Positions 2,106 to 24,922 of a stretch of 37,355 nt of DNA are shown here, piece after piece. The stretch is from a virus: IMG/VR virus record IMGVR_UViG_3300028829_002503; one strand, 5' to 3'. The translations under genes and the position numbers were made by a program. Position 1 is the first letter of the stretch. The number at the start of each line of letters is the position of its first letter. The notes beneath the pieces are model-generated. The model was not told the DNA's origin. It ran no database searches and saw nothing but the letters and a program-made list of their open reading frames with translations.

Positions 2106-3575
2106 ATGAATAAAATGTTATCATTTACCCTAATAGCAATGTCGTTATGGGGTTGTACGGGCATGACGCAAGCCGCATCTTGTCCAAATGGAGTTGATGC
2201 AGTTAAGACTGACGCAGGTGGATACTGGGTTTATAAATGTCCAGACACTAAAAGTTCAGTATCTAGTGGTGGAAAAAAATTATTAGCAGGAATAGACATT
2301 GAGAACGACCCCAATGTTGACTTCTTTAAGCCACACAAAACACCATGGACAGTCTTAAAATTCTTTCAACACAAAGAAGATTGGCAAATTGCTGATTTCA
2401 ACAATGATGGATATGTTGACGTTCTTTACATAGGAGGTATGAAAGCCGAAGCACTTACGGGTGAAGCCTTAGAACTTTTTGCTAAAGACCACAACACTAC
2501 AGTAGATGAACTTGAGGGCAATACAGGAATACATTGTGGGGACAATGCTTGTAAGGGCGTAATGCCATTGCCTCAGTTATACTTAAGTGATGAAAATGGC
2601 AAACTTACTGTAGCAGAAGGACTTATTATTGATAATCGTAAATCTCCCGGAATGTCTTTAGCAAAAGATATTCTTCTTGCTGATTATAATAATGATGGCA
2701 CTATAGATTTTTTCATTCCTGACCACGGACTTGGAACTGATAATGGAGTCAGAGACAGTTACTATCTAAGTCAACCCAATGGTACTTGGTTAGAATCAAG
2801 TAGCACCCATTTGAGTCACCCTAATTTTGTAATATTTGACCACGGTGGTGCTGTTGGTGATATTGATGGTGATGGTGATATGGATGTTGTTGTTACCCAC
2901 ACTGGTCCATCGTCATATAACACACCGCATAGACTGATGTGTTGGATGAATGATGGCAAAGGTTTTCTTAAGAAGCGTGGATGTGGTGGCAATTTTTCTT
3001 TTGCAATTGAACTTGGTGATATGGATGGCGATGGTGATTTAGATATAGTGCAGGGTGGATTAGAAAAATCAGATTGTAAACATTGTAATATTACTGCAAT
3101 TGTTTGGAATGATGGCAGAGGTAACTTTAGTAAACATAATACTACTAAGTTGCCACAATACCCAGAAGTTTATTTCAATATACCCGAGGTCTCAATGGCA
3201 GACTTAGATAATGATGGTGACTTAGATATCGTATTGAGTAGAGCCGGACATATGTATGTCGGAACAGCGGTCAGTATTATTGAAAACTTAGGTAACAAGA
3301 AGTTTAAAGACCGTGGCTTGATTGAAGTGCGTCCAGCACCTGAAGGTTATACCTCTAATTGGGAAGGTAATCCTTGGAATGCTTTTATAGTGATGATTAA
3401 GTTCAGAGACTTTGATGAAGATGGAGACATGGATGTATATTTCGGAGGTGGCTCTAATTGGACCAATGGAATGGTGTTACTAAATGAAGGTGATTTTAAT
3501 TTTGAATTATTAAAGCCTAATGACGCATCGTACCTATACGATAGAGTTGGACCAGGCCTTAAGATAGGCAACTAA
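2106..3575 (+). CDS. Secreted/lipoprotein FG-GAP (VCBS) repeat beta-propeller protein
   Basis: N-terminal signal peptide (MNKMLSFTLIAMSLWGC, lipobox-like LWGC). Six Ca-binding repeats: DFNNDGYVD, DYNNDGTID, DIDGDGDMD, DMDGDGDLD, DLDNDGDLD, DFDEDGDMD. Confidence 0.85.
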   Translation: MNKMLSFTLIAMSLWGCTGMTQAASCPNGVDAVKTDAGGYWVYKCPDTKSSVSSGGKKLLAGIDIENDPNVDFFKPHKTPWTVLKFFQHKEDWQIADFNNDGYVDVLYIGGMKAEALTGEALELFAKDHNTTVDELEGNTGIHCGDNACKGVMPLPQLYLSDENGKLTVAEGLIIDNRKSPGMSLAKDILLADYNNDGTIDFFIPDHGLGTDNGVRDSYYLSQPNGTWLESSSTHLSHPNFVIFDHGGAVGDIDGDGDMDVVVTHTGPSSYNTPHRLMCWMNDGKGFLKKRGCGGNFSFAIELGDMDGDGDLDIVQGGLEKSDCKHCNITAIVWNDGRGNFSKHNTTKLPQYPEVYFNIPEVSMADLDNDGDLDIVLSRAGHMYVGTAVSIIENLGNKKFKDRGLIEVRPAPEGYTSNWEGNPWNAFIVMIKFRDFDEDGDMDVYFGGGSNWTNGMVLLNEGDFNFELLKPNDASYLYDRVGPGLKIGN

Positions 3576-4465
3576 TCTAAAGTCTTAATTAGCCCGTCTT
3601 TAAGTGAAGTGAATTCATAATCACCAACTAAAGACAACATTTTAGAAACATCGGCGCATCTTCTGGAAACACTTCCAGCAGGTGCGTTTTTGTATGTAGG
3701 TTCTCTATCAACTCCAATAATCTCACGCACAATCTTTGCTACGTCTCCTATCGAACTCTCTATTGGATTACCAATATGAATTGTATCGTTGTTAAGTTTT
3801 TCACCTACCATCAAAGTCAGTTCAGCCGCATCATCAATATAGATAAACGCACGAGTTTCATCGTGTCCATATAACACATTATCACCTTCTCTTAATCGGT
3901 CAGCATACTCTGGAATAAAATGATTCTTCTGCTCTTTGCCGTATGCATTGTGATATCTAATAATAACATACTCTAGTCCATGTTCTTCGTGTGCGGCATG
4001 TACCGCAATCTCGCCCATAAGTTTACTACCAGCATAACTCCATCTTGTGTTGTCTATTTCATTGATTACACCCACATTGACTTCGGGTGTTGGTATTTCT
4101 GTGATACCTAGTTGAACACCACCAGCATATATCTCACTACTACTTGCATATACAAACTTTGTTTTTGAATACTTGTATCTATGAAGTAGGTTAATAGTAG
4201 GAGTCATAGTGCTATCTATAACAGATAATGGTTTTGTATAGAAGTGTGCTGTGTTATTATACGCACACAAATGATATACTATATCTGCTTCAGGCAAATA
4301 TGCAACGGCTTCTGTGTTTGTTAAATCACATGTGTCAAAAGTGTGTCCGTATGTGTTAGCAGGCTCATGTATATCGGTTAATCTAACATCATGCTCACTA
4401 TTCTCTAGTTGCTTTGCTAATGCTTGACCAATAAATCCAGAGGCGCCAGTTATTAGTATTTTCAT
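3572..4465 (-). CDS. NAD-dependent NDP-sugar epimerase/dehydratase (extended SDR)
   Basis: ILITGASGFIG Rossmann motif, ASSSEIY, catalytic YAGSK (YxxxK), RYHNAYG. Confidence 0.92.
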   Translation of the reverse strand: MKILITGASGFIGQALAKQLENSEHDVRLTDIHEPANTYGHTFDTCDLTNTEAVAYLPEADIVYHLCAYNNTAHFYTKPLSVIDSTMTPTINLLHRYKYSKTKFVYASSSEIYAGGVQLGITEIPTPEVNVGVINEIDNTRWSYAGSKLMGEIAVHAAHEEHGLEYVIIRYHNAYGKEQKNHFIPEYADRLREGDNVLYGHDETRAFIYIDDAAELTLMVGEKLNNDTIHIGNPIESSIGDVAKIVREIIGVDREPTYKNAPAGSVSRRCADVSKMLSLVGDYEFTSLKDGLIKTLD

Positions 4466-5253
4466 TTTCTCATACCCTCAAACACTGTTTTCTTAAACAG
4501 TTTATTTTCTTTATCAATATACTCAAATAGTTTATTTGGTATGCCTAGTTTCTTACATGCATTGTTCATCGCTAGTACATCTTTCGGTAAACAAGCACCG
4601 CCGTATCCTCTGAGTTCTGGCTTAACATCTAAGTATTCATCAGGCAAATCAGTGTTACGTAAGAATGCTTCTTTTACTTTATCGTAATCTGCACCCATCT
4701 TATCACTTATCTCAAACATTACATTAGAGAATACTACACGCAACGCATTAAATGTATTGTGATAGTACTTCATAAGTTCTGCTTCTGTTGGCGAAACTCT
4801 CATAATATCTTCTGGTAGTTTACCATGTGAACGTTGTACGAGGTAATAATAGTTTACATTGTTTGTTCCAACTAGTAACAACTTGTGGTCAAATATAAAG
4901 TCATACTCTGCACTTCGTTCTTTTAAGAACTCTGGGACAAATACAATTCTATCATCATATTGTTCTACTAGTCTTTTAGTAGTACCTGGTTCTACTGTTG
5001 ACTTAATACCTATTACGCCTTCATAGTTTGCTTGACGTAATTCAGCAACGACACTTTCTACAATACTTGTGTCGCATTCACCTTTGTCGTTTGTTGGTGT
5101 AGGCACACATAGATATACAATCTCTGCTTCTAACAAATCTTCTATCTTTGTGTCGAGTGTAATGTCATGTGGTATAACTGTATACCCACAATGTTCAAAG
5201 CCTGTCTTACATGCTTTGCCTACTACTCCTAATCCTACTACTCCTATTTTCAT
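4462..5253 (-). CDS. UDP-glucose/GDP-mannose dehydrogenase family, short form lacking the C-terminal domain
   Basis: GLGVVG, CVPTP, KSTVEPG, PEFLKE, AELMKY, catalytic GYGGACLPKD. Start placed at ATG 5253 (ATGA overlap with the upstream stop). Confidence 0.9.
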   Translation of the reverse strand: MKIGVVGLGVVGKACKTGFEHCGYTVIPHDITLDTKIEDLLEAEIVYLCVPTPTNDKGECDTSIVESVVAELRQANYEGVIGIKSTVEPGTTKRLVEQYDDRIVFVPEFLKERSAEYDFIFDHKLLLVGTNNVNYYYLVQRSHGKLPEDIMRVSPTEAELMKYYHNTFNALRVVFSNVMFEISDKMGADYDKVKEAFLRNTDLPDEYLDVKPELRGYGGACLPKDVLAMNNACKKLGIPNKLFEYIDKENKLFKKTVFEGMRK

Positions 5254-5771
5254 AAATTCTTCCACTTTACACTACAACCAAATGATGGATTTGGTTCCCA
5301 ATCAATTGACTTGCCTACTAATGTTAAATCTAAGGCATGCCGCAGACTGCTACCAGTTGGCATCAAATCATTACTTGTGTGACTTGGGTCTAGTTCACCA
5401 TGATACACAATAGTATCATCTTCATCAATGACATAAAACTCTGGAGTACAAACTGCGCCATATTCCTTTGCTATGCTTTGGTCTTCATCAAATATATAAT
5501 CACACGCCACTCCATACTTGTTTACAAAATCTTCCATAAACTCTGGTGCATCTTCTGGACTACTATCGTCTGTGTCTGGACTTGCATCGTTACTGTTGAC
5601 TGCAATACAATGTACTCTATCGTTATACTCTTTTACTATCTTTGATATTGCCGGCATTCTAAACAAGACATAAGGACAATGGTTACAAATAATCATTACT
5701 AGTCTTACACCCCTAACATCGTCAATTGGATATGCTTTCTTGCCTATCATGTTTTCACTTGTTAATAACAT
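5250..5771 (-). CDS. Thioredoxin-fold AhpC/TSA (peroxiredoxin-like) protein
   Basis: ICNHCPYV (CxxC), VNSND, AVCTPEF, GCSVKW. Start placed at ATG 5771 (TAATG coupling). Confidence 0.85.
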   Translation of the reverse strand: MLLTSENMIGKKAYPIDDVRGVRLVMIICNHCPYVLFRMPAISKIVKEYNDRVHCIAVNSNDASPDTDDSSPEDAPEFMEDFVNKYGVACDYIFDEDQSIAKEYGAVCTPEFYVIDEDDTIVYHGELDPSHTSNDLMPTGSSLRHALDLTLVGKSIDWEPNPSFGCSVKWKNL

Positions 5772-6541
5772 TACGTCAACCTCACTATTGAAATAGCACA
5801 ATCATCTATCTCTTGTGTGTATACAAATTTATCGTTAAAGAACTCATCTACAACTTCGTGTACTCCAGAAAACATATTATAATCATCTATATGGATTACT
5901 CCACCCACTGGTATCAAGTCCCATATATGTTCTAGTGTATGTTTGGTTGGTGCCGCAATATCCATGTCTAATCGTATAAAAGATATTTGTTCTGGCAATG
6001 TTGTAGGTATTGTATCGATAACTGAACCCTCAACATATATCACTGTATCATCTATAATATCTTTTATTTCTTCACTATTATATTTGTTGTTCGTTTGATT
6101 TTTAGTATGTTCTAAAACATTTTGTTTAACTTCATCTAAATCACAGTAGCACCATTTATCATCAACGTATCTACTTTCTACACTCTCTCCAGAACCTTCA
6201 TTGTTCATCAGTATGTGAGTATCATTGTCTATCAATTCATTTTTAGGCACACCAGAAAATGTGTCATATGCCCAGAAAGAACGATTTATATTCAATCTTT
6301 TCATCTCACCAATAGACAGTGCAATATTGCCTCCCATATAAACACCACATTCTACTAAGTCACCAGGAATCTTTTTTCTTTCAACATATCTGATAGTTTC
6401 TAATATGGCATTCATCCGTGAAGTACTCATTGTAGATATAGTAGATATTTCCATCATCTTTCCAATATCACTTTTTGTCCATTTTGAGCGATAATTGTTT
6501 TTTATTTCGCTATATATTTCTTTGTAAATAAAATCATTCAT
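5771..6541 (-). CDS. TylF/MycF/NovP-family sugar O-methyltransferase
   Basis: GDLVECGVYMGG, YDTFSG, IRLDMD, GGVIHIDDY. Confidence 0.9.
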   Translation of the reverse strand: MNDFIYKEIYSEIKNNYRSKWTKSDIGKMMEISTISTMSTSRMNAILETIRYVERKKIPGDLVECGVYMGGNIALSIGEMKRLNINRSFWAYDTFSGVPKNELIDNDTHILMNNEGSGESVESRYVDDKWCYCDLDEVKQNVLEHTKNQTNNKYNSEEIKDIIDDTVIYVEGSVIDTIPTTLPEQISFIRLDMDIAAPTKHTLEHIWDLIPVGGVIHIDDYNMFSGVHEVVDEFFNDKFVYTQEIDDCAISIVRLT

Positions 6542-7740
6542 CAGCCTATCACCTCAAACTCTGGTGTACAGAATACAAGTTTTCCGCCATCTTTAATCCA
6601 GTCTTTTAAAATTCTATTAACAAACAATTCTTTAAAGTGAAATGGGAACACTAAGAAGTAATCTGCTTTCTCTTTTGCTTCGTCTTCGTGTACAATAGGA
6701 ATACTACTACCAACTAGATACTTACCAATCTTATCTGGATGTATCTCTGCCGCACCACTAATCACATCACTATCTAGTCCATAGTATTGCATAATTGTAT
6801 TGCCTTTTGTACTAGCACCCATGATATAAACTTTCTTTCCGTTTTCTACTTCTGAACGTAAGAAGTTCATAGTGTCATCTCTATTCTTATCGATGTTTGT
6901 TTTCCAATCAGTGTATCGTTCTACTGAACAATTCTCTTCGTACTCACAACTACCTTCATTCAAGTGTCGAATATAAAGTTGATAACTGCCACCATTGATG
7001 TCGTTCTCACGTACTTGATATATCTCTAATCCATTACGTTCTAATAGGTTTACTAGTGATTGATACGAGTAGTATTCAATATGTTCATGTATCACATTGC
7101 CCAAGTCGTTAGTATCTAACATTGGTCTTGCAGTCATTAATTGGCAGACCCAAACACCACTTTCGTCTAATATATGTTTGATATCTTGTACGAATTCATT
7201 TGGATTATCTAAGTCATAGAACATAGCGACAGTAGTAACAATCTTTGCTTTACCATACCAGTCACCAATTTGCTTTTCCCAATTCTTCTTGTTGAAGAAG
7301 TCGCCTATCATAATATCACAGTTCTCTTTTAATTCTTTGTGAATATTCTGTGCTGGGTCAATGCCAACTTTTATCACGTTGTCAGGATAAAAACTTAGAA
7401 GTGTGCCGTCGTTTGCACCAATATCAACAACTAAGTCTTCGTCTTTTAGTTCCACTTCATACGATGCTTCTACTGTTATACTCTCTAAGTTATCAACAAT
7501 CTTTTTGTTCAACCTAGATAGATACCAATAATTTTTATACAGGTCTTCTTCTCGCACAGTATGAGTTAGTTGTACTAAATCACATTCTTTACAATGCACT
7601 AAGGCAAGTGGTGCTGTTCCTACATCTAAGTTTGGTTCTTTGACAAATGCATTAATTTTCAAATCTCCAATATCAAATACTGTGTTAAGGTCTTTGTTAC
7701 CACAACTTCGACATTCTTCTATTTGCTTAATATTTGCCAT
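6541..7740 (-). CDS. NDP-sugar C-methyltransferase (NovU/TcaB9-like, Zn-binding N-terminus)
   Basis: CRSC...CKEC zinc site, DIGANDG SAM motif, HEHIEYYS, C-terminal GASTKGNT domain. Confidence 0.9.
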   Translation of the reverse strand: MANIKQIEECRSCGNKDLNTVFDIGDLKINAFVKEPNLDVGTAPLALVHCKECDLVQLTHTVREEDLYKNYWYLSRLNKKIVDNLESITVEASYEVELKDEDLVVDIGANDGTLLSFYPDNVIKVGIDPAQNIHKELKENCDIMIGDFFNKKNWEKQIGDWYGKAKIVTTVAMFYDLDNPNEFVQDIKHILDESGVWVCQLMTARPMLDTNDLGNVIHEHIEYYSYQSLVNLLERNGLEIYQVRENDINGGSYQLYIRHLNEGSCEYEENCSVERYTDWKTNIDKNRDDTMNFLRSEVENGKKVYIMGASTKGNTIMQYYGLDSDVISGAAEIHPDKIGKYLVGSSIPIVHEDEAKEKADYFLVFPFHFKELFVNRILKDWIKDGGKLVFCTPEFEVIG

Positions 7741-8345
7741 TATAACTCCTTTATATAACTGATGTCAGGATACGTATATGACCCTGCAACATCTTCGTTG
7801 TATACTTTATTCTTAATAAAATTATGTAATCCTAACTCAGCAGTTTCTGGTGTCATAAACATATGATATCCCAAAACTTTCATCTTATCTTCTTCGTATG
7901 GAACACTCATATCTCTTCCATCATGTACCGCAAGTTGCGCCCAATCGTAAAAATCTTTATCATCAGTGAGTATCATTCCACCTTTAATAGTACTTAGTAT
8001 CTTTTTAAATTGAAAACTCAAGCAATGGTATGTTCCTGGTATATACATATCTTTTGTAAATCTAGGAGCACCATCTACGATGTTTGTAGGTTCAATTGGA
8101 TAAACACCTTTCCATTCTTTGTCTACAAAATTCACATCAAACCCAGCATGTATCATTTGCATTGGCGCACTAACATAAGTATTTTTTGGCATCTCAACAG
8201 TACAAGTTCCGTGTTTCTTCTTATAGTATATAGCACTTAAAAATATAGCATGACTACAACAGTCAGTTGCAATACTATATGGTGCATTGGCATAATCAGC
8301 CACTACTCTCTCAAACTTATGTACTGTGTCAAATGGATTTACCAT
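7740..8345 (-). CDS. DegT/DnrJ/EryC1-type PLP aminotransferase, short form
   Basis: FE...ADY...ATDCCSHAIFLS, PKNTYVS, IVDGA (PLP Asp), LSFQFKKIL (PLP Lys), GGMILTDD. Only 201 aa. Confidence 0.8.
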   Translation of the reverse strand: MVNPFDTVHKFERVVADYANAPYSIATDCCSHAIFLSAIYYKKKHGTCTVEMPKNTYVSAPMQMIHAGFDVNFVDKEWKGVYPIEPTNIVDGAPRFTKDMYIPGTYHCLSFQFKKILSTIKGGMILTDDKDFYDWAQLAVHDGRDMSVPYEEDKMKVLGYHMFMTPETAELGLHNFIKNKVYNEDVAGSYTYPDISYIKEL

Positions 8346-9139: not shown

Positions 9140-9530
9140 TTTTGTTCACTTTCACAATCGGGTCATTACATTTATCCCAATGTTTTGTTAACATACTGAC
9201 AAAAGAATAATCTTCTAATGCTCTGAATTTGTGAGATGTTCCAATAGGTATACGAATACTATCTCCTACTTCTAAGGTAATAGTAATATCTTCATTGTCA
9301 GACACAAATTCAGTATACTCACATCTACCAGAGACTACCATCATATACTCATTAAACTCTGGATGATAATGATATCCCCTTTCGTCACCTTTCTTAGTGA
9401 CCATAAGATTGTATTCAGTCAAGTTATCATCAATAGGAAAACTAAAGATTGTGCCACGACTATCTTTAAAGATGTCGGCAGATACCATTTCTGTTTTACT
9501 ATTCTCTTTAATCTTATTGTATCGCATCAT
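9123..9530 (-). CDS. Cupin, probable NDP-sugar epimerase/ketoisomerase (RmlC/FdtA-like)
   Basis: DSRG motif, RGYHYHP..NEY, GDSIRIPIGTSHKF cupin motifs; sugar-gene context. Confidence 0.75.
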   Translation of the reverse strand: MMRYNKIKENSKTEMVSADIFKDSRGTIFSFPIDDNLTEYNLMVTKKGDERGYHYHPEFNEYMMVVSGRCEYTEFVSDNEDITITLEVGDSIRIPIGTSHKFRALEDYSFVSMLTKHWDKCNDPIVKVNKNGNEI

Positions 9531-19197: not shown

Positions 19198-21005
19198 CTA
19201 TGATATTTGTCCTGGTACTCTTCTGCCGCTTCATCCCAAAACTCCTTCATCTCAGGAAATGTTTCTAAGAAGTTTAATCCACGTCTTTTATCATATTGAG
19301 TGAAGTATTGGTAAAATCGAATCAGTCTATCACTTAATTCGTCTTCATACATTGCTTCGCCCTCTTTAGCCCATGCTAAATCCCTCTCAAGTTTTAATAC
19401 TTCGTAGTTTTTAAATCCTTTATAAGTTTTTCCATAAACTTCATCAGAACAAACATTCGCTTTCATATAATCGATGTTGTCTTCTATAACTGTTAACAAC
19501 TCTTGGTCGCACAATTGAATATTAAACCAATTAGGGTCTCTTAAATATGGCAAATCAAACCAAATCTTCTGAGCCAAGACTTTATGTTTGTTATCTATTT
19601 GATATTGATACCCGTATTTTTCTCTTAGTTCTAACATATAATTTAAAAATCCACGCAAAGAAGGAACACTCAATAAGTTAAATGTGTTAATAAATGTCAC
19701 ACTAACTCTAGTGGTCTCTGTAAGAAGTCGGTCAACATTACGTTTCAATTTCTCAAAATCTAAGCCGTCACGCATGTACTCTGCTTGTGGTCCTATGCCA
19801 TCTACGCTAATAAAAACACTAATATGTTTACATGCAACGTTGTCAAATATATGATTCCACTTGCCCCATTCGTTGTTTCTTTTATAGTGATTCATGTATA
19901 AGAAACTATTGTCATCTGGTTCTATGCATGGACCTAATCCAGTGAACTCCTGTTTGATATCTTCAGCCGATATAGTATCTACATTAGGTTGAATTTCGTG
20001 TGGAATAATACCATGTAATGTTTCTTCTAAAATATACTGTGTCCAAGTTTTCCAATGACTTCCATCTTTTGGGTCTTTTACATAGAATATAATATTTCTA
20101 AGTCCGTCATCATTTGATTTTGGCTTTTCAAACAACGTGTCGAAATCTACCTCTACTACAGTTGGGTCATTTTCTGCAATAAGTGGTTCTTCTAATACTT
20201 TTACTTTCTCAATAAACTTATCAAATAATGCATCATCTGGAGGACACATATTCGTAGTCAGTGAAACTTCTAAATCAGGATTTGGATTATCTCTAATATA
20301 ATCTAATACTTTAAAAGTATTTTTATCCATAAGAGGTTCACCACCAGTCATACGAAAAATCTTTAGATTAGAATATATATCCGGAAACCATTTCCAAAAT
20401 GCTTCAATATAAGGATTATCTTTACGTGCAACTTCTAATGGCATTAAGCCAATAGTTTTGAGTTCTTGTACGTTATTATGGCCACCACCGTCATCGAAAT
20501 TAAATGAACCATGTTCTTTGATATCATCTTCCCATGCAGTAGACAAGTGAGGCGAACAATATGCACACTTGAAGTTACATGCTTGATTAAAATTGACTTC
20601 GACATATCTAGGAGCAATGTCATGGTCCCAAGCATTTTCTACTACTTCATTCCAAGCATCTTTAACCCACCACTCACTACTGCGATAATGTCTATCACTT
20701 AGTCTGCCACCTTCTGGTGGATTTGCGGCATCTTCTACATTCCAACAGTACTGACATCCCTTTGGTCTGTCACCATTTAACATTTGTCTACGTTCATGTA
20801 GTTTAAACTGTGTATTATGTAGTGCGTTTGGATTTGCCTTTAACTCATCTAATGGAATAGCATGAGTAGGGGGATGATAGCAACTGTGAGTTCTACCTTG
20901 TGGAAGATGCAAACTGACTTGTAGCCATTTTGCCATACACATTGAAGGCGATATGTCGTTTAACTTGCCTCTTGTAGCAATCGCATCATCATCGTAGTTT
21001 GCCAT
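19194..21005 (-). CDS. N-terminal twitch domain radical SAM protein with a large internal insertion
   Basis: CMAKW...SCYHP...CQYCW, CNFKCAYC, MTGGEP, SVDG; C-terminal YDKRR motif shared with its neighbours. Confidence 0.9.
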   Translation of the reverse strand: MANYDDDAIATRGKLNDISPSMCMAKWLQVSLHLPQGRTHSCYHPPTHAIPLDELKANPNALHNTQFKLHERRQMLNGDRPKGCQYCWNVEDAANPPEGGRLSDRHYRSSEWWVKDAWNEVVENAWDHDIAPRYVEVNFNQACNFKCAYCSPHLSTAWEDDIKEHGSFNFDDGGGHNNVQELKTIGLMPLEVARKDNPYIEAFWKWFPDIYSNLKIFRMTGGEPLMDKNTFKVLDYIRDNPNPDLEVSLTTNMCPPDDALFDKFIEKVKVLEEPLIAENDPTVVEVDFDTLFEKPKSNDDGLRNIIFYVKDPKDGSHWKTWTQYILEETLHGIIPHEIQPNVDTISAEDIKQEFTGLGPCIEPDDNSFLYMNHYKRNNEWGKWNHIFDNVACKHISVFISVDGIGPQAEYMRDGLDFEKLKRNVDRLLTETTRVSVTFINTFNLLSVPSLRGFLNYMLELREKYGYQYQIDNKHKVLAQKIWFDLPYLRDPNWFNIQLCDQELLTVIEDNIDYMKANVCSDEVYGKTYKGFKNYEVLKLERDLAWAKEGEAMYEDELSDRLIRFYQYFTQYDKRRGLNFLETFPEMKEFWDEAAEEYQDKYHR

Positions 21006-21998
21006 TTAGTGTCCGCTCCACCCTGTGGATTTTTCTGTCGCTAATGGATTATCACTTCTTGGTGGATTTGTATAAACCTCTTTAAAGAATGAACTTGTTT
21101 CTGGTGTAGGGTCTGTTATTTGCATTCTGATTCTTTCACTTAGAATATCACCAATTCGTAAAGCCTCATCATATAACTTTTCGTAATCCCATTCTACACC
21201 GGTTCTACTACATTTTTCACTATTATTATCACTTGAACAAGTGGGCAGTACTTCTTCTTCAAAATATGACTTGAACCAATCAAACGATGAGATATTTTCT
21301 AGTTTATAATCTTCCACAAAGTTTACATCATAGCACCCAAGCCTTGCTCCGTAACAAGCCCATAGACCATTTTCAACATCAGCACCAACGTTACACCATG
21401 TTAATAGTCTTTGATAATTTTTATGCCATATTCTCTTTTTAAAGTCTTCGATTGGCACTGTTTTGCCTTCGTCTAACGACATTTTAACACCCTCACGGTA
21501 TCCTGCACGAAATGCCTGAAATGGTGAGCCTGCATTATATACCTCTGAGTATATGTTGTTCATCTGGATATAATTCAAATCCCAACAGAAGTCTACTTTC
21601 TTTGTTTCATCTTCTGCATTCTCGTGTGTTTTCATTTCTAACACCAAGTCTACCGGCCAACATTTAATACCACCATTACCATATACAAGACCATTTATCA
21701 TGTTCTTTGCACTCCAACTAACTATAGAGTTTGCTAGGTCAGTATCTTCTGGAAATGAAATTGCTAAATCAAAAAACTTTTCATCAACAATATTGTCTCC
21801 ATCTATTGTTATAAATCTTTCTGTTTCACTTTGCTTTGCACATTCTTTATGTGCATTGTCAAATCCTTTTACTCCGTCAACTCTCTTAGCAAAAGGAAAC
21901 TTCATCATTAGATTCGCCCAATGTTCTTCCTTTGCTGGTTCATCGTAACTGATGTAAAATACATCTAAGTCACCGATTATTACTTGCTTCGATTTCAT
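21006..21998 (-). CDS. Putative GT-A fold glycosyltransferase-like protein
   Basis: DVFYISYDE first strand, FITIDGDN (DxD after a hydrophobic strand), GNGGIK. Confidence 0.55.
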   Translation of the reverse strand: MKSKQVIIGDLDVFYISYDEPAKEEHWANLMMKFPFAKRVDGVKGFDNAHKECAKQSETERFITIDGDNIVDEKFFDLAISFPEDTDLANSIVSWSAKNMINGLVYGNGGIKCWPVDLVLEMKTHENAEDETKKVDFCWDLNYIQMNNIYSEVYNAGSPFQAFRAGYREGVKMSLDEGKTVPIEDFKKRIWHKNYQRLLTWCNVGADVENGLWACYGARLGCYDVNFVEDYKLENISSFDWFKSYFEEEVLPTCSSDNNSEKCSRTGVEWDYEKLYDEALRIGDILSERIRMQITDPTPETSSFFKEVYTNPPRSDNPLATEKSTGWSGH

Positions 21999-22001
21999 AA
22001 T

Positions 22002-22568
22002 TTACTCCCACGAATATTTGTCAAAATACTTCTGAGTGTATACACTCACATTGTATTTATTATATGATAACTTAATGCTTTTTCCAGAAGACAAAAGTTC
22101 TGAGAATGGCACTAATATTGTCTTTATTAAGAAATCAGGTCTATCTTTGTGGGTCACGAAGAACACATGTTCTGTCTTGCCAGCAATAGTTACTACTTGG
22201 TTTTCATCTATTCCTATCACTTCTTTGAGTTTGTCGTTAGCAGTGAACACTAATGTCTCGTCCTCTAGTGAAAGTAGTATATCTGCATCTTCTGTTTGTT
22301 GTATCTTATGTAGTTGATTATCTTTGTTTCTTCTTTTGATATCAACTTTTGTTTTAATAATTTCGAAAATGAGTGGATTATCAGTTCTACTAACTATGTA
22401 ATCAGAGAACTTATATTTTCCTTCAAGGAATGGCTTAATATCTTCTACTTCAAACCAAGCACATAAGTCCTTTGTGTCTTGTATTTGCCTTGATATTTGT
22501 GTGATAGCACTAAATCCATCAAAGTAAACAGCACGGCATGTATCAGTCTTTTCTAGCACACTTTTCAT
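22002..22568 (-). CDS. Hypothetical protein
   Basis: 188-aa ORF, ATGA-coupled to the upstream gene. No motif recognised. Confidence 0.7.
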   Translation of the reverse strand: MKSVLEKTDTCRAVYFDGFSAITQISRQIQDTKDLCAWFEVEDIKPFLEGKYKFSDYIVSRTDNPLIFEIIKTKVDIKRRNKDNQLHKIQQTEDADILLSLEDETLVFTANDKLKEVIGIDENQVVTIAGKTEHVFFVTHKDRPDFLIKTILVPFSELLSSGKSIKLSYNKYNVSVYTQKYFDKYSWE

Positions 22569-23521
22569 AATACTGCATCCTCAAGTTGTTTAATTTTAGT
22601 ACTGTCCATCCAATTCTTCTCTACATAATGCACAGGCAGTGTTTGAGTAAAGTTACCAATCTTAACTTGTAAATCATCTCCCATCTCACTTGTTATGCTT
22701 TTAGTCCAGATAGAGTTTATTTCGCTTTCTGGTATATTCTGTACCATACTTTTCATATGAACAAAAGTCGGAACATCTTTGATATTATAGTCACATGTTT
22801 CCTCTTCGATGTCTAATAGTTGAATAGCCAATGCATATGCGATATCGGCACTCATCCAGTTCTGTCCCATTCCACTAAGAAACTTATCAAAGTAAGCATT
22901 CCAATGTGTCATAATCAATTCAACCATTTTGAAGAACATAAATGTTTCTTGTGATTTCTTAAAATAAGTAAAATTACTATATATATTTGGTAAGTTTAAT
23001 AGTGTAAACTTCTTTCTATAATAGTCACTCGTTACATCTTCGTTTCTGAAAGTCTTAACATTCGTACAGAACCAAAGATTTTTTGTTGATAGATAATCCC
23101 ACCAGTGGTCAACACTATCAGTGAATATCATATCACTATCTAGGATAATTGTTTCATGGTAAGGTGTCATATGTGAATATTTCCACTTATTATGTATCTT
23201 CCATTTATCACCCTTTGCATCATCATTCCAGGGAATATCAACGATGGCATCAAATACTTCTCTATGTCTGTCTGTAATTAACTTTTTAGTTTCTTCGTCT
23301 ACACATACACAAAGTTTATTAATTTTCTGTGTTGCTTTTAAACTTAGGGCAAGAGCATATGACATTTCTAAATAATCATTGTCTTCACTATTTTGAGCAA
23401 TAGTTATATATCCTTTAGTCGATGTGGGATTTTTAAACCAATCTGGATTCTCTTTTACTTTATCTCTCCAATCACTCCAGTCTGGATTAACTGGTGGAAC
23501 ATAAGTATCTTTTTCAACCAT
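22565..23521 (-). CDS. GT-A fold glycosyltransferase-like protein (GT8-like)
   Basis: KGYITIAQN, ALALSLK, TPYHETIILDSDM (DxD), SADIAYALA, FVHMK. Confidence 0.7.
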   Translation of the reverse strand: MVEKDTYVPPVNPDWSDWRDKVKENPDWFKNPTSTKGYITIAQNSEDNDYLEMSYALALSLKATQKINKLCVCVDEETKKLITDRHREVFDAIVDIPWNDDAKGDKWKIHNKWKYSHMTPYHETIILDSDMIFTDSVDHWWDYLSTKNLWFCTNVKTFRNEDVTSDYYRKKFTLLNLPNIYSNFTYFKKSQETFMFFKMVELIMTHWNAYFDKFLSGMGQNWMSADIAYALAIQLLDIEEETCDYNIKDVPTFVHMKSMVQNIPESEINSIWTKSITSEMGDDLQVKIGNFTQTLPVHYVEKNWMDSTKIKQLEDAVL

Positions 23522-24389
23522 TTACTTTTTCTCCATGTTTCAGAAAGTCATCAATAAGTCTTCCTATTGCTTTCTTATTCATAATATGAATATCTGTTTT
23601 AGTGAACCTTGATAATAGGTGATTACTAATTTGTTCTGCATCAGCACAATACATAATAATATCTTCATGTGAATTTATTCTAAAGATATCATCAAGGTCG
23701 AAACTATTACTAAGATAGTCTATAGGCAAAGATGGAACTTCAAAAGCAACCCCACCATTCAATATATGTAATGCCATAGAAAATGCAAAATCATTTCTAT
23801 ATAAATTGCCACTACAGTTATATAGATAATAATAATACTTATAATTGTATTTTATATGATTTACAAGAGTGAATAGATTTTCTGCATATTCAGATTTTTT
23901 AAAGTAGACTATTGTTGCCCAGAACATAGGAATACTAAAATTATCAATATATTCAATGTTCACTTTGTGTCTGTCTGCAATATCTCTGAACTTAGAGTTA
24001 ATCATTATATCATTTTCACTGCCCCATACTTGGTCGAGAACATCGTTCATAATGAAATAGTCACTATCTATGACTAACGTTTCGTCATATGGAGACAAAT
24101 CATATACATCGCCTCTACCTAAGTTCTTAAAGGATGCATACTCAGTGTTTTTCACGGTGTCTTTAAATAATCTTACATTATCAGGTTGAAAAGTATCGCT
24201 AATAATTACTTTATCAAAGTATTCATTTATCTTTTCAGCATTAGAAACAAGTGTCTCTGTGTTTGTTATTAGGCATATCTCATCAAACAATGACAGATTT
24301 TTTCTGGCAAAGCCAGCACAAGCACATGCCTGTGAAGCATAATCGACATACTCATTATTTTGAGCAAATATTATAATACCTTTACTCAT
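23514..24389 (-). CDS. GT-A fold glycosyltransferase-like protein (paralog of 22565..23521)
   Basis: KGIIIFAQN, SPYDETLVIDSDY (DxD), RNDFAFSMA, HIMNK. Confidence 0.7.
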   Translation of the reverse strand: MSKGIIIFAQNNEYVDYASQACACAGFARKNLSLFDEICLITNTETLVSNAEKINEYFDKVIISDTFQPDNVRLFKDTVKNTEYASFKNLGRGDVYDLSPYDETLVIDSDYFIMNDVLDQVWGSENDIMINSKFRDIADRHKVNIEYIDNFSIPMFWATIVYFKKSEYAENLFTLVNHIKYNYKYYYYLYNCSGNLYRNDFAFSMALHILNGGVAFEVPSLPIDYLSNSFDLDDIFRINSHEDIIMYCADAEQISNHLLSRFTKTDIHIMNKKAIGRLIDDFLKHGEKVNG

Positions 24390-24390
24390 A

Positions 24391-24783
24391 TTAAATTTCT
24401 AAGACTTTTTGAATTTTACGTGAACTTCTTAATTTCTGATATTCGTTATAATAATCATTGACTACTTCAAAATATAAACTTGATATTTCACTTAGAAATT
24501 TTTCTGTATCTTCAATGAAAATAGGAATTTGATTTTTATCAAGTATTGATATTTCTGTTTTGCCGGATGAAACAACAAAATGCATGAAAGAAATAAGTGA
24601 TTGGTCAACCGCAAACGAACCACCACTAGTACTGTGGCTTAGTAAGTTTTGGGTCTTGACTTTTAGATTGTTTTTATTTAAATTGAAGGTTTTCATTGTG
24701 TTAGAGAATTCAAGTGCTTTCTCTAAACGCTCTAAATCTTCTGCTGATGCTTCTGTTTTTACCTCTGGTGTGGTGCTAGCCAT
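24391..24783 (-). CDS. Hypothetical protein, first gene of the glycan/radical SAM run
   Basis: Start re-placed at ATG 24783 (MASTTPEV) because GGAG lies at 24795-24792 and the track's TTG start falls on the promoter -35 box. Confidence 0.75.
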   Translation of the reverse strand: MASTTPEVKTEASAEDLERLEKALEFSNTMKTFNLNKNNLKVKTQNLLSHSTSGGSFAVDQSLISFMHFVVSSGKTEISILDKNQIPIFIEDTEKFLSEISSLYFEVVNDYYNEYQKLRSSRKIQKVLEI

Positions 24784-24808
24784 ATATTTTTCTCCTATAA
24801 TAGTACTT

Positions 24809-24837
24809 ATAATACTATATATAGGGCAAAAAGTCAA
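24809..24837 (-). promoter_or_regulatory. Sigma70-type promoter for the 22-gene run
   Basis: Minus strand TTGACT (24837-24832), 17-nt spacer, TATTAT (24814-24809), followed by SD and ATG. Confidence 0.7.
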
Positions 24838-24874: not shown

Positions 24875-24922
24875 ACAAAAGAATATCGCCAACCAGATAA
24901 ACTAGTTGGCGATTATTTTTGT
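24875..24922 (-). terminator. Rho-independent terminator, possibly bidirectional
   Basis: Minus strand ATCGCCAACTAG-TTTAT-CTGGTTGGCGAT (12-bp stem with one G-U pair) followed by ATTCTTTTGT. The plus strand also has a T-tract after the stem. Confidence 0.75.

What the first reader, a model, noticed from the sequence alone, without database searches (positions are those of the whole stretch)
3572..24837. Phage-encoded glycan assembly line with six radical SAM enzymes, next to the baseplate genes
Seen: 22 same-strand genes with overlaps or gaps of at most 3 nt behind one promoter. They encode four glycosyltransferase-like proteins, NDP-sugar enzymes (dehydrogenase, SDR epimerase, cupin, DegT, C-methyltransferase), tailoring enzymes (TylF O-methyltransferase, sulfotransferase, SGNH) and six twitch radical SAMs. 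Known: this enzyme mix is typical of antibiotic deoxysugar/aminocyclitol pathways (NovU/NovP; twitch enzymes BtrN and HygY act on aminocyclitols). Inference: the phage makes a branched, methylated, aminated, sulfated and radical-edited glycan. The adjacent Ser/Thr-rich baseplate/tail proteins are the simplest acceptors (virion glycosylation); host surface polymer or DNA are alternatives. No flippase, polymerase or membrane protein is apparent in the run, which favours a cytoplasmic acceptor.
Basis: partly seen in the sequence, partly recalled or inferred. Interest (0 to 1): 0.9.

Follow-up and report, generated by a model that had tools for sequence, protein, structure and literature searches.

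The report
Phage glycan operon with radical-SAM array
An uncultured marine giant phage carries, right behind its baseplate and tail-fibre genes, a 21-kb operon of 22 soluble enzymes (four sugar-transferase folds, sugar-tailoring enzymes, six iron-sulfur "radical SAM" enzymes) that most likely builds and chemically edits an unusual sugar decoration, probably on a protein; the core is widespread in phages but what it makes is unknown.

Summary
Window 3572-24837 (minus strand) is one run of 22 overlapping or abutting genes. It sits behind a terminator and a sigma-70-type promoter that is kept in 28 of 28 relatives. The neighbouring structural genes carry T4-type late motifs instead. Four glycosyltransferase folds are now shown: two GT8-like, one GT-A, one GT-B. 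Also present are an SDR, short NDP-sugar dehydrogenase and DegT forms, a cupin, a C-methyltransferase and a TylF O-methyltransferase, with weaker sulfotransferase-like and SGNH-like calls. Five radical SAMs belong to the unstudied NF033640 N-twitch family; the sixth has the same cysteine domain at its C-terminus. No protein has a membrane helix.

The order fibre genes, two GT8-like genes, GT-A, radical SAMs recurs in over 50 IMG/VR contigs and in culturable Ralstonia phage RsoM2USA. The sugar-tailoring cassette varies between relatives.

New here: relatives of the GT-A occur fused to GT-B enzymes in bacterial peptide-modification (RiPP-like) clusters, one with two N-twitch radical SAMs. This favours a protein acceptor, though the acceptor and the chemistry are untested.

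The scan found the same kind of array in at least 10 other genomes. A 2020 pelagimyophage paper noted similar cassettes. I class this as a new variant of a known kind.

The parts
24809..24837 (-). sigma-70-type promoter TTGACT-N17-TATTAT of the operon
   Evidence: The same TTGAC[AT]-N17-TAT(T/A)AT lies about 53 nt before the first gene in 28 of 28 distinct relatives; a late motif occurs in only 1 of 28.
24885..24913 (-). intrinsic terminator (12-bp stem, T tail) ending the upstream late unit u2-u1
24391..24783 (-). g22, small conserved protein of unknown family, first gene of the operon (ATG 24783; the ORF list gives TTG 24837)
   Evidence: Homologues of 115-131 aa in 28 loci and RsoM2USA ORF354. 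No family or PDB match.
23514..24389 (-). g21, GT8-like GT-A paralogue (DxD: IDSDY)
   Evidence: hhalign 99.8% to the g20 profile. D108 and D110 invariant. Found in 53 loci.
22565..23521 (-). g20, GT8-like (glycogenin-like) glycosyltransferase
   Evidence: Profile against PDB: glycogenin-1/2, E 5e-5 over about 107 residues. D130 invariant. Found in 53 loci.
22002..22568 (-). g19, conserved protein of unknown family
   Evidence: Found in 33 loci. No Pfam, NCBIfam or PDB match.
21006..21998 (-). g18, GT-A fold transferase with C-terminal helical domain (invariant DGD 66-68)
   Evidence: AF2 pLDDT 83. Foldseek hits are all GT-A, including SunS/ThuS, TarP and WrtF. VIA Z about 10. 1536 relatives; fused to GT-B in bacteria.
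19194..21005 (-). g17, N-twitch radical SAM (NF033640) with a roughly 130-aa insert
   Evidence: 303.6 bits in two stretches. CX3CX2C at residue 143; N-terminal Cys 23, 42, 84, 87.
17794..19197 (-). g16, N-twitch radical SAM, 51% identical to g15; present only in the closest clade
   Evidence: 289.3 bits..
16253..17797 (-). g15, N-twitch radical SAM, core member
   Evidence: 317.4 bits. 50-80% identical orthologues in 80 IMG/VR loci; 53% in RsoM2USA.
15659..16252 (-). g14, sulfotransferase-like P-loop protein (weak call)
   Evidence: Invariant G10 R11 G13 T15, R91 D93 S100. Atlas neighbours at 0.96-0.97 carry Sulfotransfer_3/1. No Pfam or PDB hit.
14389..15705 (-). g13, radical SAM with the auxiliary Cys domain at the C-terminus (usual order)
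   Evidence: Radical_SAM plus SPASM below cut-offs. NF033640 57 bits. Cys 324, 343/344, 412, 416.
12986..14392 (-). g12, N-twitch radical SAM, core member
   Evidence: 305.6 bits. Up to 96% identical orthologues.
11662..13068 (-). g11, N-twitch radical SAM, core member (likely start 12993)
   Evidence: 359.3 bits. 1223 homologues at E<=1e-10.
10722..11687 (-). g10, SGNH/GDSL-like protein (weak)
   Evidence: Pfam E 1e-3, below cut-off. GDS motif seen by eye.
9514..10728 (-). g09, GT-B fold glycosyltransferase
   Evidence: AF2 pLDDT 89, pTM 0.89. Foldseek hits are all GT-B: TarM, SenB, glycogen synthase, exostosin, T4 alpha-GT.
9123..9530 (-). g08, cupin (sugar isomerase/epimerase-type)
   Evidence: Cupin_2 38.7 bits.
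8339..9139 (-). g07, unknown protein
   Evidence: No family. Found in 4 loci.
7740..8345 (-). g06, short (201 aa) DegT/DnrJ/EryC1-like protein
   Evidence: Pfam 52 bits, covering only parts of the 360-position profile. Length 201-202 aa is conserved in 5 loci at 70-92% identity.
6541..7740 (-). g05, NDP-hexose C-methyltransferase (Zn ribbon + methyltransferase + C-terminal domain)
   Evidence: PF08421, PF13489 and PF08484, all above cut-off.
5771..6541 (-). g04, TylF/NovP-type O-methyltransferase; unique to this window among the relatives
   Evidence: PF05711 96 bits. 0 of 81 loci.
5250..5801 (-). g03, Redoxin/AhpC-like thioredoxin-fold protein (CxxC)
   Evidence: PF08534 43 bits.
4462..5265 (-). 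g02, short NDP-sugar dehydrogenase-like protein (no C-terminal domain; GGxCxxKD cysteine kept)
   Evidence: TIGR03026 146.6 bits, below the 189.8 cut-off, positions 64-304 of 413. Short forms recur next to radical SAM triplets in L070-L079.
3572..4465 (-). g01, extended SDR (epimerase/dehydratase/decarboxylase type; SSE...YxxxK)
   Evidence: PF01370 139 bits. Best NCBIfam hits are LegB, GalE and UXS/ArnA-type, none above cut-off.
25056..25973 (-). u1, Ser/Thr-rich (27%), Cys-free fibre-like protein; candidate acceptor
   Evidence: Family conserved in 23 loci. No match in any phage isolate.
25991..26638 (-). u2, core virion protein of this jumbo-phage group, behind late motifs at 26668-26691
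   Evidence: phrog_11259. Homologue PA5oct gp357 was detected in virions by MS, per the record annotation. Late motif present in 25 of 33 relatives.
26723..35635 (-). u3, 2970-aa giant virion structural protein
   Evidence: phrog_10938, E 6e-166. Homologues in PA5oct, SCTP-2, Atu_ph07 and others.
35638..37353 (-). u4, baseplate wedge subunit (runs off the window)
   Evidence: phrog_10646, E 6e-58. tblastn.

Best explanation
The operon is a self-contained, cytoplasmic glycosylation and editing module of a marine jumbo phage, transcribed from its own conserved sigma-70-type promoter.

Proposed working:
- The variable downstream cassette turns host nucleotide-sugars into unusual donors (keto, amino, C-methyl, O-methyl, perhaps uronic or pentose forms). 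It comprises the SDR, short dehydrogenase, short DegT, cupin, C-methyltransferase, TylF, a GT-B transferase and sulfotransferase-like and SGNH-like proteins.
- The conserved core (two GT8-like transferases and the g18 GT-A) attaches sugars to a protein acceptor. The most likely acceptors are the phage's own Ser/Thr-rich fibre and baseplate proteins encoded immediately upstream.
- The six radical SAM enzymes, each with an auxiliary four-cysteine cluster, then carry out hydrogen-abstraction chemistry on the attached sugars or at the sugar-protein junction. Candidate reactions are epimerisation, oxidation, dehydration or C-C/C-X coupling.

What is shown: the folds and families, the operon structure, the promoter class, the conserved synteny and the absence of membrane proteins. 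What is inferred: the acceptor, the order of steps and every reaction.
For: Enzyme identities:
- Family calls.
- Four glycosyltransferase folds.
- All six radical SAMs keep CX3CX2C and a four-cysteine auxiliary motif. The GGEP motif is present in the five N-twitch enzymes but absent from g13.
- The N-terminal domain of the family profile aligns weakly with the BtrN twitch domain, E 0.0017.

Conserved linkage:
- The order giant virion protein, u2, u1, g22, g21, g20, (g19), g18, radical SAMs is kept in more than 50 IMG/VR loci at 25-87% identity.
- It is kept in culturable Ralstonia phage RsoM2USA, beside MS-confirmed virion protein ORF356 (PMC8504454).
- It is kept in a distant phage contig behind tail-collar proteins.

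Protein acceptor favoured:
- g18's structural matches include the peptide S-glycosyltransferases SunS and ThuS.
- g18-like domains are fused to GT-B enzymes in bacterial clusters that also hold C39-peptidase ABC exporters and double-glycine-leader precursor peptides.
- One such cluster (L120) also holds two full-length N-twitch radical SAMs.

Support functions and context:
- A complete 342.6-kb relative has 11 N-twitch radical SAMs over the cut-off plus 4 weaker matches. It also has MetK, a flavodoxin and an MtnN/Pfs nucleosidase directly upstream of one radical SAM.
- It has no RmlA-type nucleotidyltransferase, so donors probably start from host NDP-sugars.
- No membrane helix occurs in any of the 22 proteins.
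Against: - No glycan, glycoprotein or enzyme activity has been observed for any member of the core.
- The operon's promoter class (sigma-70-type) differs from the late motifs of the structural genes. A terminator separates the two units. Co-location could therefore reflect a permissive hypervariable island rather than a functional link.
- In relatives the accessory genes around the arrays are mostly unknown to Pfam. Only a few are sugar enzymes: 2 epimerases, 1 carbamoyltransferase, 3 fatty-acid desaturases among 147 ORFs.
- Bacterial neighbours of N-twitch radical SAMs are only mildly enriched in sugar genes.
- Two pathway enzymes are truncated forms of uncertain activity.
- The peptide-cluster context was seen in only about 4 independent loci. 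No such leader peptide exists in the phage loci.
- Close cultured relatives (PA5oct, SCTP-2 and others) lack the module, so it is not needed to build this kind of virion.
Confidence: 0.45

Rival explanations
1. Host-envelope remodelling. The soluble transferases act at the cytoplasmic face on host LPS core, O-unit or capsule precursors, and host machinery exports the product. This would change the infected cell's surface, for example to exclude superinfecting phages or to stop progeny adsorbing to debris.
For: - The conserved sigma-70-type promoter resembles the early promoters of T4-like phages, whereas the structural neighbours have late motifs.
- GT8 is the family of soluble LPS-core transferases. 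The published reading of similar islands in pelagimyophages is host O-chain modification (PMC7029224).
- A lipoprotein-like FG-GAP gene with a perfect sigma-70 promoter lies next to the operon.
Against: - No polyprenyl-phosphate transferase, flippase, polymerase or ligase is present, and no membrane protein at all.
- The core keeps its place behind fibre genes in phages of very different hosts, including Ralstonia and marine hosts.
- Cellular relatives of g18 sit in peptide-modifying clusters, not LPS clusters.
- Up to 15 radical SAMs for a transient surface change seems costly. This last point is inference.
Confidence: 0.2
2. RiPP-like protein maturation. The radical SAMs modify the polypeptide itself, through crosslinks, epimerisation or C-H functionalisation of a phage protein such as u1, g22 or another virion protein. 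The transferases add only simple sugars, and the sugar-tailoring cassette is an add-on.
For: - L120 couples two N-twitch radical SAMs with double-glycine-leader peptides and a C39 exporter.
- The best sequence match to a solved structure for the radical SAM core is the sactisynthase SkfB, E 2e-5.
- SPASM/twitch enzymes are mostly peptide maturases (PMC10114670, listed).
Against: - No leader-type precursor is found in 81 phage loci.
- u1 and u2 contain no cysteine, so thioether links are excluded.
- There is no RRE-like domain; the N-terminus is taken up by the twitch domain.
- The core is always joined to three GT-A genes, and in this clade to NDP-sugar enzymes.
Confidence: 0.12
3. Small-molecule product. 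The operon makes an aminoglycoside-like or nucleotide-sugar-derived metabolite, such as an antibiotic, signal or inhibitor, rather than a polymer or glycoprotein.
For: - The enzyme mix resembles antibiotic deoxysugar pathways: C-methyltransferase, TylF, DegT, cupin, SDR and twitch radical SAMs as in BtrN (PMC10337720).
- A cyanophage paper read a similar radical SAM plus aminotransferase pair as 'antibiotic genes' (PMC12801897).
- The promoter is sigma-70-type, like early promoters of T4-like phages.
Against: - There is no scaffold-forming enzyme such as a cyclitol synthase, PKS or NRPS, and no exporter or resistance gene.
- Four transferases and a stable position behind fibre genes fit a macromolecular acceptor better.
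- The tailoring cassette is variable while the transferases and radical SAMs are the conserved part.
Confidence: 0.08
4. DNA hypermodification. The sugars are attached to phage DNA bases and edited there.
For: - Phage glycosyltransferases often act on DNA, and T4 alpha-glucosyltransferase is among the GT-B structural matches of g09.
- The promoter is sigma-70-type, the class of T4 early promoters; from textbook knowledge, T4 DNA-modification genes are early genes.
Against: - No base hydroxymethylase, kinase or transglycosylase lies in or near the operon.
- The complete relative has an ordinary high-scoring ThyA and a separate FolE-QueE 7-deazaguanine gene set, which is a more likely DNA-modification route.
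- The operon lies in the fibre region in all relatives.
Confidence: 0.03

Closest known systems
NCBIfam NF033640, N_Twi_rSAM (twitch domain-containing radical SAM protein; no characterised member)
   Same: Five of the six radical SAMs score 289-359 bits against a cut-off of 170. They match end to end, with CX3CX2C and an N-terminal C-x17/18-C-x41/63-C-x2-C motif.
   Different: The family is only a sequence model and no function is attached to it. Here the members form an array of anciently diverged paralogues (21-51% identity) in a phage operon. g13 has the auxiliary domain at the C-terminus and does not reach the cut-off.
BtrN-type twitch radical SAM enzymes acting on aminocyclitols and sugars (BtrN oxidises 2-deoxy-scyllo-inosamine; PMC10337720)
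   Same: Both have one auxiliary cluster site with four cysteines beside the SAM cluster. The N-terminal domain aligns weakly with BtrN residues 214-258, E 0.0017. Both keep company with sugar-pathway genes.
   Different: The domain order is permuted (auxiliary domain first). Sequence similarity is marginal. SkfB, MoaA and the radical SAM decarboxylase BlsE score as well or better. The substrate is unknown.
Host recognition cluster of pelagimyophages and cyanomyophages (Zaragoza-Solas et al. 2020, PMC7029224)
   Same: Both are a hypervariable island in the structural region, after the giant baseplate protein. Both hold tail fibres, GT8 transferases, UDP-glucose dehydrogenase and swappable radical SAM cassettes.
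   Different: Those are 130-165-kb T4-like phages, and the genes were only listed and read as host O-chain modification. Here a jumbo phage of the PA5oct/Rak2 type has a defined, promoter-bounded 22-gene operon with a conserved core. Homology of u3 to VrlC was not tested.
Virus-encoded virion glycosylation (mycobacteriophage capsid and tail glycosylation, Freeman et al. 2023, cited in PMC12801897; chlorovirus and mimivirus glycans, from my own knowledge)
   Same: Soluble, virus-encoded transferases next to structural genes, with no lipid-linked export machinery.
   Different: Those systems have no radical SAM enzymes and, as far as I recall, no comparable NDP-sugar tailoring cassette. Here the operon has a different promoter class from the structural genes, and glycosylation is not demonstrated.
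Glycocin-type RiPP clusters (SunS/ThuS S-glycosyltransferases with a C39 ABC exporter)
   Same: g18 has a GT-A domain plus a helical domain and matches SunS and ThuS structurally, Z 8.7-9.2. g18-like domains occur in bacterial clusters with double-glycine-leader peptides and C39 exporters.
   Different: The phage operon has no leader peptide, protease or exporter. The bacterial enzymes are GT-B plus g18-like fusions. Those clusters are themselves uncharacterised.

Membership tests
NF033640 N_Twi_rSAM | Whole-protein score above the curated cut-off (170 bits), matched end to end | tested here: met
   g11 359, g12 306, g15 317, g16 289, g17 304 bits. g13 scores only 57.5 bits and is not a member.
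NF033640 N_Twi_rSAM | CX3CX2C radical SAM cluster motif, plus a four-cysteine auxiliary motif N-terminal to it | tested here: met
   Cysteine positions listed. C6, C25, C89, C92, C145, C149 and C152 are invariant in a 10-sequence alignment.
NF033640 N_Twi_rSAM | Reductive SAM cleavage and a defined substrate | not testable with these tools
   Needs anaerobic reconstitution. No member of the family has been assayed; no paper was found.
Twitch radical SAM (BtrN type) | Truncated SPASM domain with one Cys4 auxiliary cluster, C-terminal to the core | tested here: not met
   Five enzymes have the domain at the N-terminus. Only g13 has the usual order. The cysteine pattern itself fits a single Cys4 site.
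Twitch radical SAM (BtrN type) | Detectable homology of the auxiliary domain to BtrN | tested here: inconclusive
   Profile positions 43-85 against BtrN 214-258, E 0.0017, 20.7 bits.
GT8 (glycogenin / LPS alpha-glycosyltransferases) | Sequence membership (Pfam PF01501 or a profile match) | tested here: inconclusive
   No Pfam hit at E 0.01. The g20 family profile hits glycogenin-1/2 at E 5e-5 over the N-terminal 107 residues. g21 joins only through g20.
GT8 (glycogenin / LPS alpha-glycosyltransferases) | DxD metal and nucleotide-sugar motif | tested here: met
   Invariant D130 in LDSD (g20) and D108/D110 in IDSDY (g21).
GT-A fold glycosyltransferase (g18) | Nucleotide-diphospho-sugar transferase fold with DxD | tested here: met
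   pLDDT 83. All Foldseek hits are GT-A, probability 0.97-1.0. Z is 9-10 over residues 5-156, but MobA/IspD nucleotidyltransferases score similarly. D66 and D68 are invariant. Fusions to GT-B enzymes support a transferase role.
GT-B fold glycosyltransferase (g09) | Two-Rossmann-domain GT-B fold | tested here: met
   pLDDT 89, pTM 0.89. The top 50 Foldseek hits are all GT-B enzymes. A GT10 lead from the Atlas scored only 0.78.
NDP-hexose C-methyltransferase (TylC3/NovU type) | Zn ribbon, SAM methyltransferase and C-terminal domain, each above the Pfam cut-off | tested here: met
   PF08421 49 bits, PF13489 47 bits, PF08484 94 bits.
DegT/DnrJ/EryC1 aminotransferase | Full-length fold-type I PLP enzyme (about 360 positions) | tested here: not met
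   g06 is 201 aa and matches profile positions 24-95 plus a second short stretch. The short length is conserved in 5 loci. An SFxxKK lysine motif is visible by eye.
Nucleotide-sugar dehydrogenase (TIGR03026) | Three domains and a score above 189.8 bits | tested here: not met
   146.6 bits, profile positions 64-304 of 413. The C-terminal domain is absent.
Sulfotransferase | PAPS-binding P-loop and 3'-phosphate-binding motif, with family membership | tested here: inconclusive
   No Pfam, NCBIfam or PDB sequence hit. GRxGT and R91/D93/S100 are invariant. Nearest Atlas clusters (0.96-0.97) carry Sulfotransfer_3 in 51% of members.
O-antigen / LPS modification by phage (Gtr- or Wzx/Wzy-type) | Membrane flippase, polymerase or polyprenyl-phosphate transferase | tested here: not met
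   No hydrophobic 19-residue window typical of a membrane helix in any of the 22 proteins. No such Pfam family was found.
Virion glycosylation operons (mycobacteriophage type) | Transferase genes transcribed with the late structural genes | tested here: not met
   The operon has its own sigma-70-type promoter in 28 of 28 relatives. The late motif lies before u2 only, and in the window a terminator lies between the two units.
Virion glycosylation operons (mycobacteriophage type) | Glycans on capsid or tail proteins | not testable with these tools
   Needs glycoproteomics of virions.

The most novel reading that the evidence does not exclude
The core (g18-type transferase plus N-twitch radical SAMs) is a phage version of an uncharacterised bacterial glyco-peptide (RiPP-like) maturation system. 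In phages it would act on whole virion fibre proteins. Radical SAM enzymes would edit a protein-linked glycan or the sugar-protein junction after attachment. That would be the first radical-SAM-matured virion glycoprotein and a new class of glycan-editing radical enzymes, with swappable radical SAM cassettes diversifying the fibre surface.
Probability: 0.25. Interest if true: 0.9.

Novelty: new variant of a known kind. Interest (0 to 1): 0.65.

Why it matters
This phage lineage spends a great deal on the system. The window has six radical SAM genes. A complete relative has 11 over the family cut-off plus 4 weaker matches, along with its own SAM synthetase, flavodoxin and 5'-deoxyadenosine/MTA nucleosidase.

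The enzyme family (NF033640) has never been assayed. The g18-type transferase family has about 1500 sequence clusters and no known function.

If the product decorates tail fibres or the host surface, it bears on how giant marine phages recognise hosts or evade defences. It would also add radical chemistry to the known ways of editing glycans or glycoproteins.

A culturable phage, RsoM2USA, carries a minimal one-radical-SAM version of the core. Bacterial clusters with obvious precursor peptides offer a second, simpler system. Both make the question directly testable.

Tried and rejected
- Megablast of the 21-kb run against 50,697 phage records found no match.
No RNA evidence was obtained and read laying was not used.
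- No whole genome is held for the window. A complete relative, G001, was used instead.
- Profile searches against PDB sequences gave nothing usable for g18, g14, g09, u2, g22 (MutL at E 0.01 judged chance) and g19.
- u2 is not homologous to the MS-confirmed RsoM2USA virion protein ORF356 (hhalign probability 0.1%).
- Literature searches for the radical SAM family in phages found no functional study.
- Pfam tallies of neighbours were done for 125 ORFs in 11 bacterial loci and 147 unmatched ORFs in 25 phage loci. They showed only mild enrichment of sugar genes. 'The company it keeps' is therefore weaker evidence than earlier notes suggested.
- A scan for double-glycine-leader/Tyr-Gly peptides in 31 bacterial N-twitch loci and 81 phage loci found none.
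- The conserved u1 loop SGSGSGYGGAWSW resembles the bacterial core-peptide starts. I rejected it as evidence because u1 is 74% conserved overall.
- Complex prediction was not used. No claim here rests on a specific protein-protein contact, and enzyme-substrate pairs are poor subjects for it.
- T4-type late motifs are not the operon's promoter. Only 3 occur in the window, 2 of them before u2.

Full report
**What is in the window.** One search lists 22 minus-strand ORFs between 3572 and 24837. They overlap by a few bases or are separated by 0-3 nt once likely ATG starts are used. The run converges on a plus-strand FG-GAP gene (2106-3575).

Upstream lie four structural genes:
- u1 (25056-25973), 27% Ser+Thr
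- u2 (25991-26638), phrog_11259
- u3 (26723-35635), a 2970-aa virion structural protein, phrog_10938
- u4 (35638 onward), a baseplate wedge subunit, phrog_10646

The nearest cultured relatives of u2-u4 are jumbo phages: PA5oct, SCTP-2, Atu_ph07, CBB, GAP32 and the 350-kb E. coli phages. Identity is 25-38%. PA5oct's u2 homologue gp357 carries an ESI-MS/MS note in the record. Earlier notes on this same genome describe an uncultured marine jumbo phage with a T4-like replisome.

**Enzyme identities.** Pfam and NCBIfam give the following:
- g01: extended SDR
- g02: short nucleotide-sugar-dehydrogenase-like protein (146.6 bits against a 189.8 cut-off; no C-terminal domain)
- g04: TylF-type O-methyltransferase
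- g05: three-domain NDP-hexose C-methyltransferase
- g06: 201-aa DegT-like protein
- g08: cupin
- g10: weak SGNH
- g11, g12, g15, g16, g17: NF033640 N-twitch radical SAMs, 289-359 bits against a cut-off of 170
- g13: radical SAM with a C-terminal SPASM-like region

The short DegT is not a fresh pseudogene. It is 201-202 aa in five distinct relatives at 70-92% identity. Short dehydrogenase-like genes of 248-276 aa also recur directly before radical SAM triplets in a more distant clade.

All six radical SAMs keep CX3CX2C. The five N-twitch enzymes also keep GGEP and an N-terminal C-x17/18-C-x41/63-C-x2-C motif. g13 lacks GGEP and carries the same kind of cysteine pattern at its C-terminus. The paralogues are old: 21-27% identity between subfamilies and 34-51% within the g15/g16/g17 group.

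**The genes without a family.**
- g20: a 17-sequence profile hits glycogenin-1/2 (GT8) at E 5e-5.
- g21: a paralogue of g20, hhalign 99.8%. Both keep an invariant DxD aspartate.
- g18: the AlphaFold model has pLDDT 83. It matches only GT-A enzymes by Foldseek: hyaluronan synthase, WrtF, ThuS/SunS, RmlT and TarP. Z is about 10 over residues 5-156. Nucleotidyltransferases such as MobA score nearly as well. The invariant DGD motif and the fusions described below favour a transferase.
- g09: the model has pLDDT 89 and is a GT-B enzyme; all top 50 Foldseek hits are GT-B.
- g14: an invariant GRxGT P-loop and R/D/S motif. Its closest language-model clusters carry sulfotransferase families. It has no HMM hit, so the call is provisional.
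- g22, g19 and g07 remain unknown.

None of the 22 proteins has a membrane-helix-like segment.

**Transcription.** After u1 there is a 12-bp-stem terminator (24913-24885). TTGACT-17-TATTAT follows at 24837-24809, about 25 nt before the ATG at 24783.

In 28 of 28 distinct relatives, including those where g22 is only 32-37% identical, TTGAC[AT]-N17-TAT(T/A)AT lies about 53 nt before the g22 start. Only one of them has a T4-type late motif there.

By contrast, [TG]ATAAATA lies 33-39 nt before u2 in 25 of 33 relatives, and none has a sigma-70-like site. The window has only three such motifs, two of them before u2.

The operon is therefore a separate unit with a sigma-70-type promoter, embedded in a late structural region. 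That it is expressed early is an inference from T4-like phages.

**Conservation.** A search with g15 returned 80 IMG/VR loci. tblastn maps show the order u3 C-terminus, u2, u1, g22, g21, g20, g19, g18, g17, (g16), g15, g12, g11 in more than 50 of them. The number of radical SAMs varies from about 3 to 10.

The g05-g10 and g14 cassette occurs only in the closest clade (6-13 loci). TylF occurs in none.

The only phage isolate with the core is Ralstonia phage RsoM2USA. Its ORF354-348 are g22-like, g21, g20, g19-like, g18, one radical SAM and a g18 paralogue. They lie next to the u1-like ORF355 and ORF356. ORF356 was found in virions by mass spectrometry. The sheath, a giant structural protein and the baseplate wedge lie just beyond (PMC8504454).

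A contig binned as a Fischerella MAG is in fact phage DNA: it has tail-collar proteins, ThyA and DHFR. It has the same minimal core plus a full-length DegT.

**Support functions in a complete relative.** G001 is 342.6 kb with terminal repeats, and its g15 orthologue is 74% identical. It has:
- 11 N-twitch radical SAMs above the cut-off and 4 weaker ones, in at least six places
- MetK
- a flavodoxin, next to FolE and QueE
- an MtnN/Pfs nucleosidase, 197 bits against an equivalog cut-off of 169, shortly upstream of a radical SAM with one small HIT-like ORF between

It has no RmlA-type nucleotidyltransferase. The FolE-QueE set is a more likely route to DNA modification than this operon.

**Which substrate class?** Bacterial relatives of the radical SAMs are mostly in Bdellovibrionota MAGs, often also as arrays. 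A Pfam tally of 125 neighbouring ORFs found 3 carbamoyltransferases, 2 epimerases, 2 GT7 and 2 GT1 proteins. That is only a mild sugar signal. A tally of 147 unmatched ORFs in phage relatives was weaker still.

A more telling result came from g18:
- Its profile finds 1536 cluster representatives.
- About 15 of the best 150 are 730-810-aa fusions of a GT1/MGT/MurG-like GT-B domain with a C-terminal g18-like domain.
- Where they could be looked up, these genes lie next to a C39-peptidase ABC exporter and an HlyD/AprE-like protein. Small ORFs of 56-87 aa lie nearby, with a canonical double-glycine leader (LSxxELxxxxGG) and cores beginning (G)Y(G/P).
- In locus L120, two full-length N-twitch radical SAMs sit between the transferase fusions and four precursor genes. 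They score 198 and 196 bits, end to end, against an HMM of my alignment A6.

So at least one cellular system couples a g18-type transferase and N-twitch radical SAMs to ribosomal peptides. Together with g18's structural likeness to SunS and ThuS, this moves the odds towards a protein acceptor for the phage operon.

It is not proof. The phage loci contain no such leader peptides, and only about four independent bacterial loci were seen.

**Mechanism proposed, with its status.**
- Shown: folds and families, operon structure, promoter class, synteny, absence of membrane proteins, and support genes in a relative.
- Inferred, step 1: host NDP-sugars are retailored by the variable cassette. An SDR with an S-x-E / YxxxK site, as in 4,6-dehydratases and UXS/ArnA decarboxylases, would make a keto sugar. 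The cupin, C-methyltransferase, DegT-like protein and TylF would then isomerise, methylate, aminate and O-methyl it.
- Inferred, step 2: the GT8-like pair and g18 attach sugars to a protein, most simply the adjacent fibre or baseplate proteins. g09 extends the chain. g14 and g10 may sulfate it or (de)acylate it.
- Inferred, step 3: each radical SAM abstracts a hydrogen at a different position of the attached glycan or the linkage. The Cys4 auxiliary cluster would act as electron conduit, as proposed for BtrN (PMC10337720).

I put 0.45 on this reading. The rivals are host-envelope remodelling at 0.20, peptide-backbone (RiPP-like) maturation at 0.12, a small molecule at 0.08 and DNA at 0.03.

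**Comparison with what is known.** The closest sequence family is NF033640, which has no studied member. The closest published description is the 'host recognition cluster' of pelagimyophages and cyanomyophages. There, GT8 genes, UDP-glucose dehydrogenase and radical SAM cassettes were listed after the giant baseplate protein and read as host O-chain modification (PMC7029224). A cyanophage paper read a radical SAM plus aminotransferase pair as antibiotic genes (PMC12801897). Neither paper defines the operon, its promoter, the conserved core or the link to peptide clusters.

This scan has reported the same kind of array in at least 10 other genomes, with the same provisional reading. My independent checks agree. 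They add the promoter contrast, the fold of g09, the support genes and the bacterial peptide-cluster context.

**Verdict.** The feature is real, conserved and widespread, and its chemistry is unknown. It is a new variant of known kinds: virus-encoded glycosylation, and radical SAM tailoring. Interest 0.65.

Noticed in passing
window 2044-3575 (+): An FG-GAP/VCBS-repeat protein (489 aa) has a lipoprotein-type signal (…SLWGC…). It sits behind a perfect sigma-70 promoter (TTGACA-16-TATAAT with TG, 2044-2071) and converges on the operon with a 4-nt overlap. It may be a host-surface-acting early gene. RsoM2USA also has a VCBS-repeat protein (ORF155, PMC8504454).
   Followed up: partly
window 2-1983 (-): The two ORFs beyond the FG-GAP gene (279 aa; 385 aa, running off the window) have 23-33% identical homologues inside radical SAM arrays of other phages (L021, L033, L050). 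The functional island may therefore extend past 3572, and the FG-GAP gene may be an insertion.
   Followed up: partly
L120 (Logan SRR22411500 contig), also L117-L119, L121: These are uncharacterised bacterial RiPP-like clusters. They hold GT-B plus g18-like fusion transferases, a C39 ABC exporter, an HlyD-like protein and 56-87-aa double-glycine-leader peptides whose cores start (G)Y(G/P). L120 also holds two N-twitch radical SAMs.
   Followed up: partly
window 25190-25230 (-), u1 residues about 252-266: u1 carries a nearly invariant loop SGSGSGYGGAWSW. It is the only Gly-rich Tyr-Gly match in any frame of the window and loosely resembles the bacterial core-peptide starts. The lead is weak because u1 is 74% conserved overall.
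   Followed up: partly
window 7740-8345 and 4462-5265 (-): These are conserved miniature forms of two sugar enzymes: a 201-aa DegT-like protein (same length in 5 relatives) and a roughly 265-aa NDP-sugar-dehydrogenase-like protein without the nucleotide-binding C-terminal domain. The latter recurs next to radical SAM triplets in L070-L079.
   Followed up: partly
window 19194-21005 (-), g17 residues about 265-395: g17 has an insert of roughly 130 aa inside the radical SAM core. NF033640 matches in two stretches, and there is a weak GH10-like hit at E 0.002. In relatives, g17 tblastn hits also come in two pieces, so the insert is variable.
   Followed up: no
G001 = IMGVR_UViG_3300020469_003050 (L114, L115): The complete 342.6-kb relative encodes FolE and a QueE-like radical SAM beside flavodoxin and MetK, which suggests 7-deazaguanine DNA modification. 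It also encodes an MtnN/Pfs nucleosidase, a HIT protein and an APS-kinase-like P-loop protein just before an N-twitch radical SAM.
   Followed up: partly
L106 (JANZYY010000027, 'Fischerella' MAG) and L098 (PBPT01000082, 'Neomarinimicrobiota' MAG): L106, binned as bacterial, carries phage genes (tail collar, ThyA, DHFR, DUF2201) and the g21-g20-g18-radical SAM core, so it is probably a mis-binned phage contig or a prophage. L098 carries the same core order (u1-, g22-, g21-, g20-, g18- and g15-like genes) and may be phage-derived too; its flanking genes were not examined.
   Followed up: partly
whole window: The T4-type late motif [TG]ATAAATA is depleted: 3 matches against 11 expected from shuffles. 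Two of the three lie in the 84-nt spacer before u2. The third (18156-18163) lies inside g16.
   Followed up: no
phage relatives L010-L080: Fatty-acid desaturase genes (3 of 147 unmatched ORFs) and a B12-binding radical SAM occur among the accessory genes of related arrays, so some cassettes may handle lipids as well as sugars.
   Followed up: no
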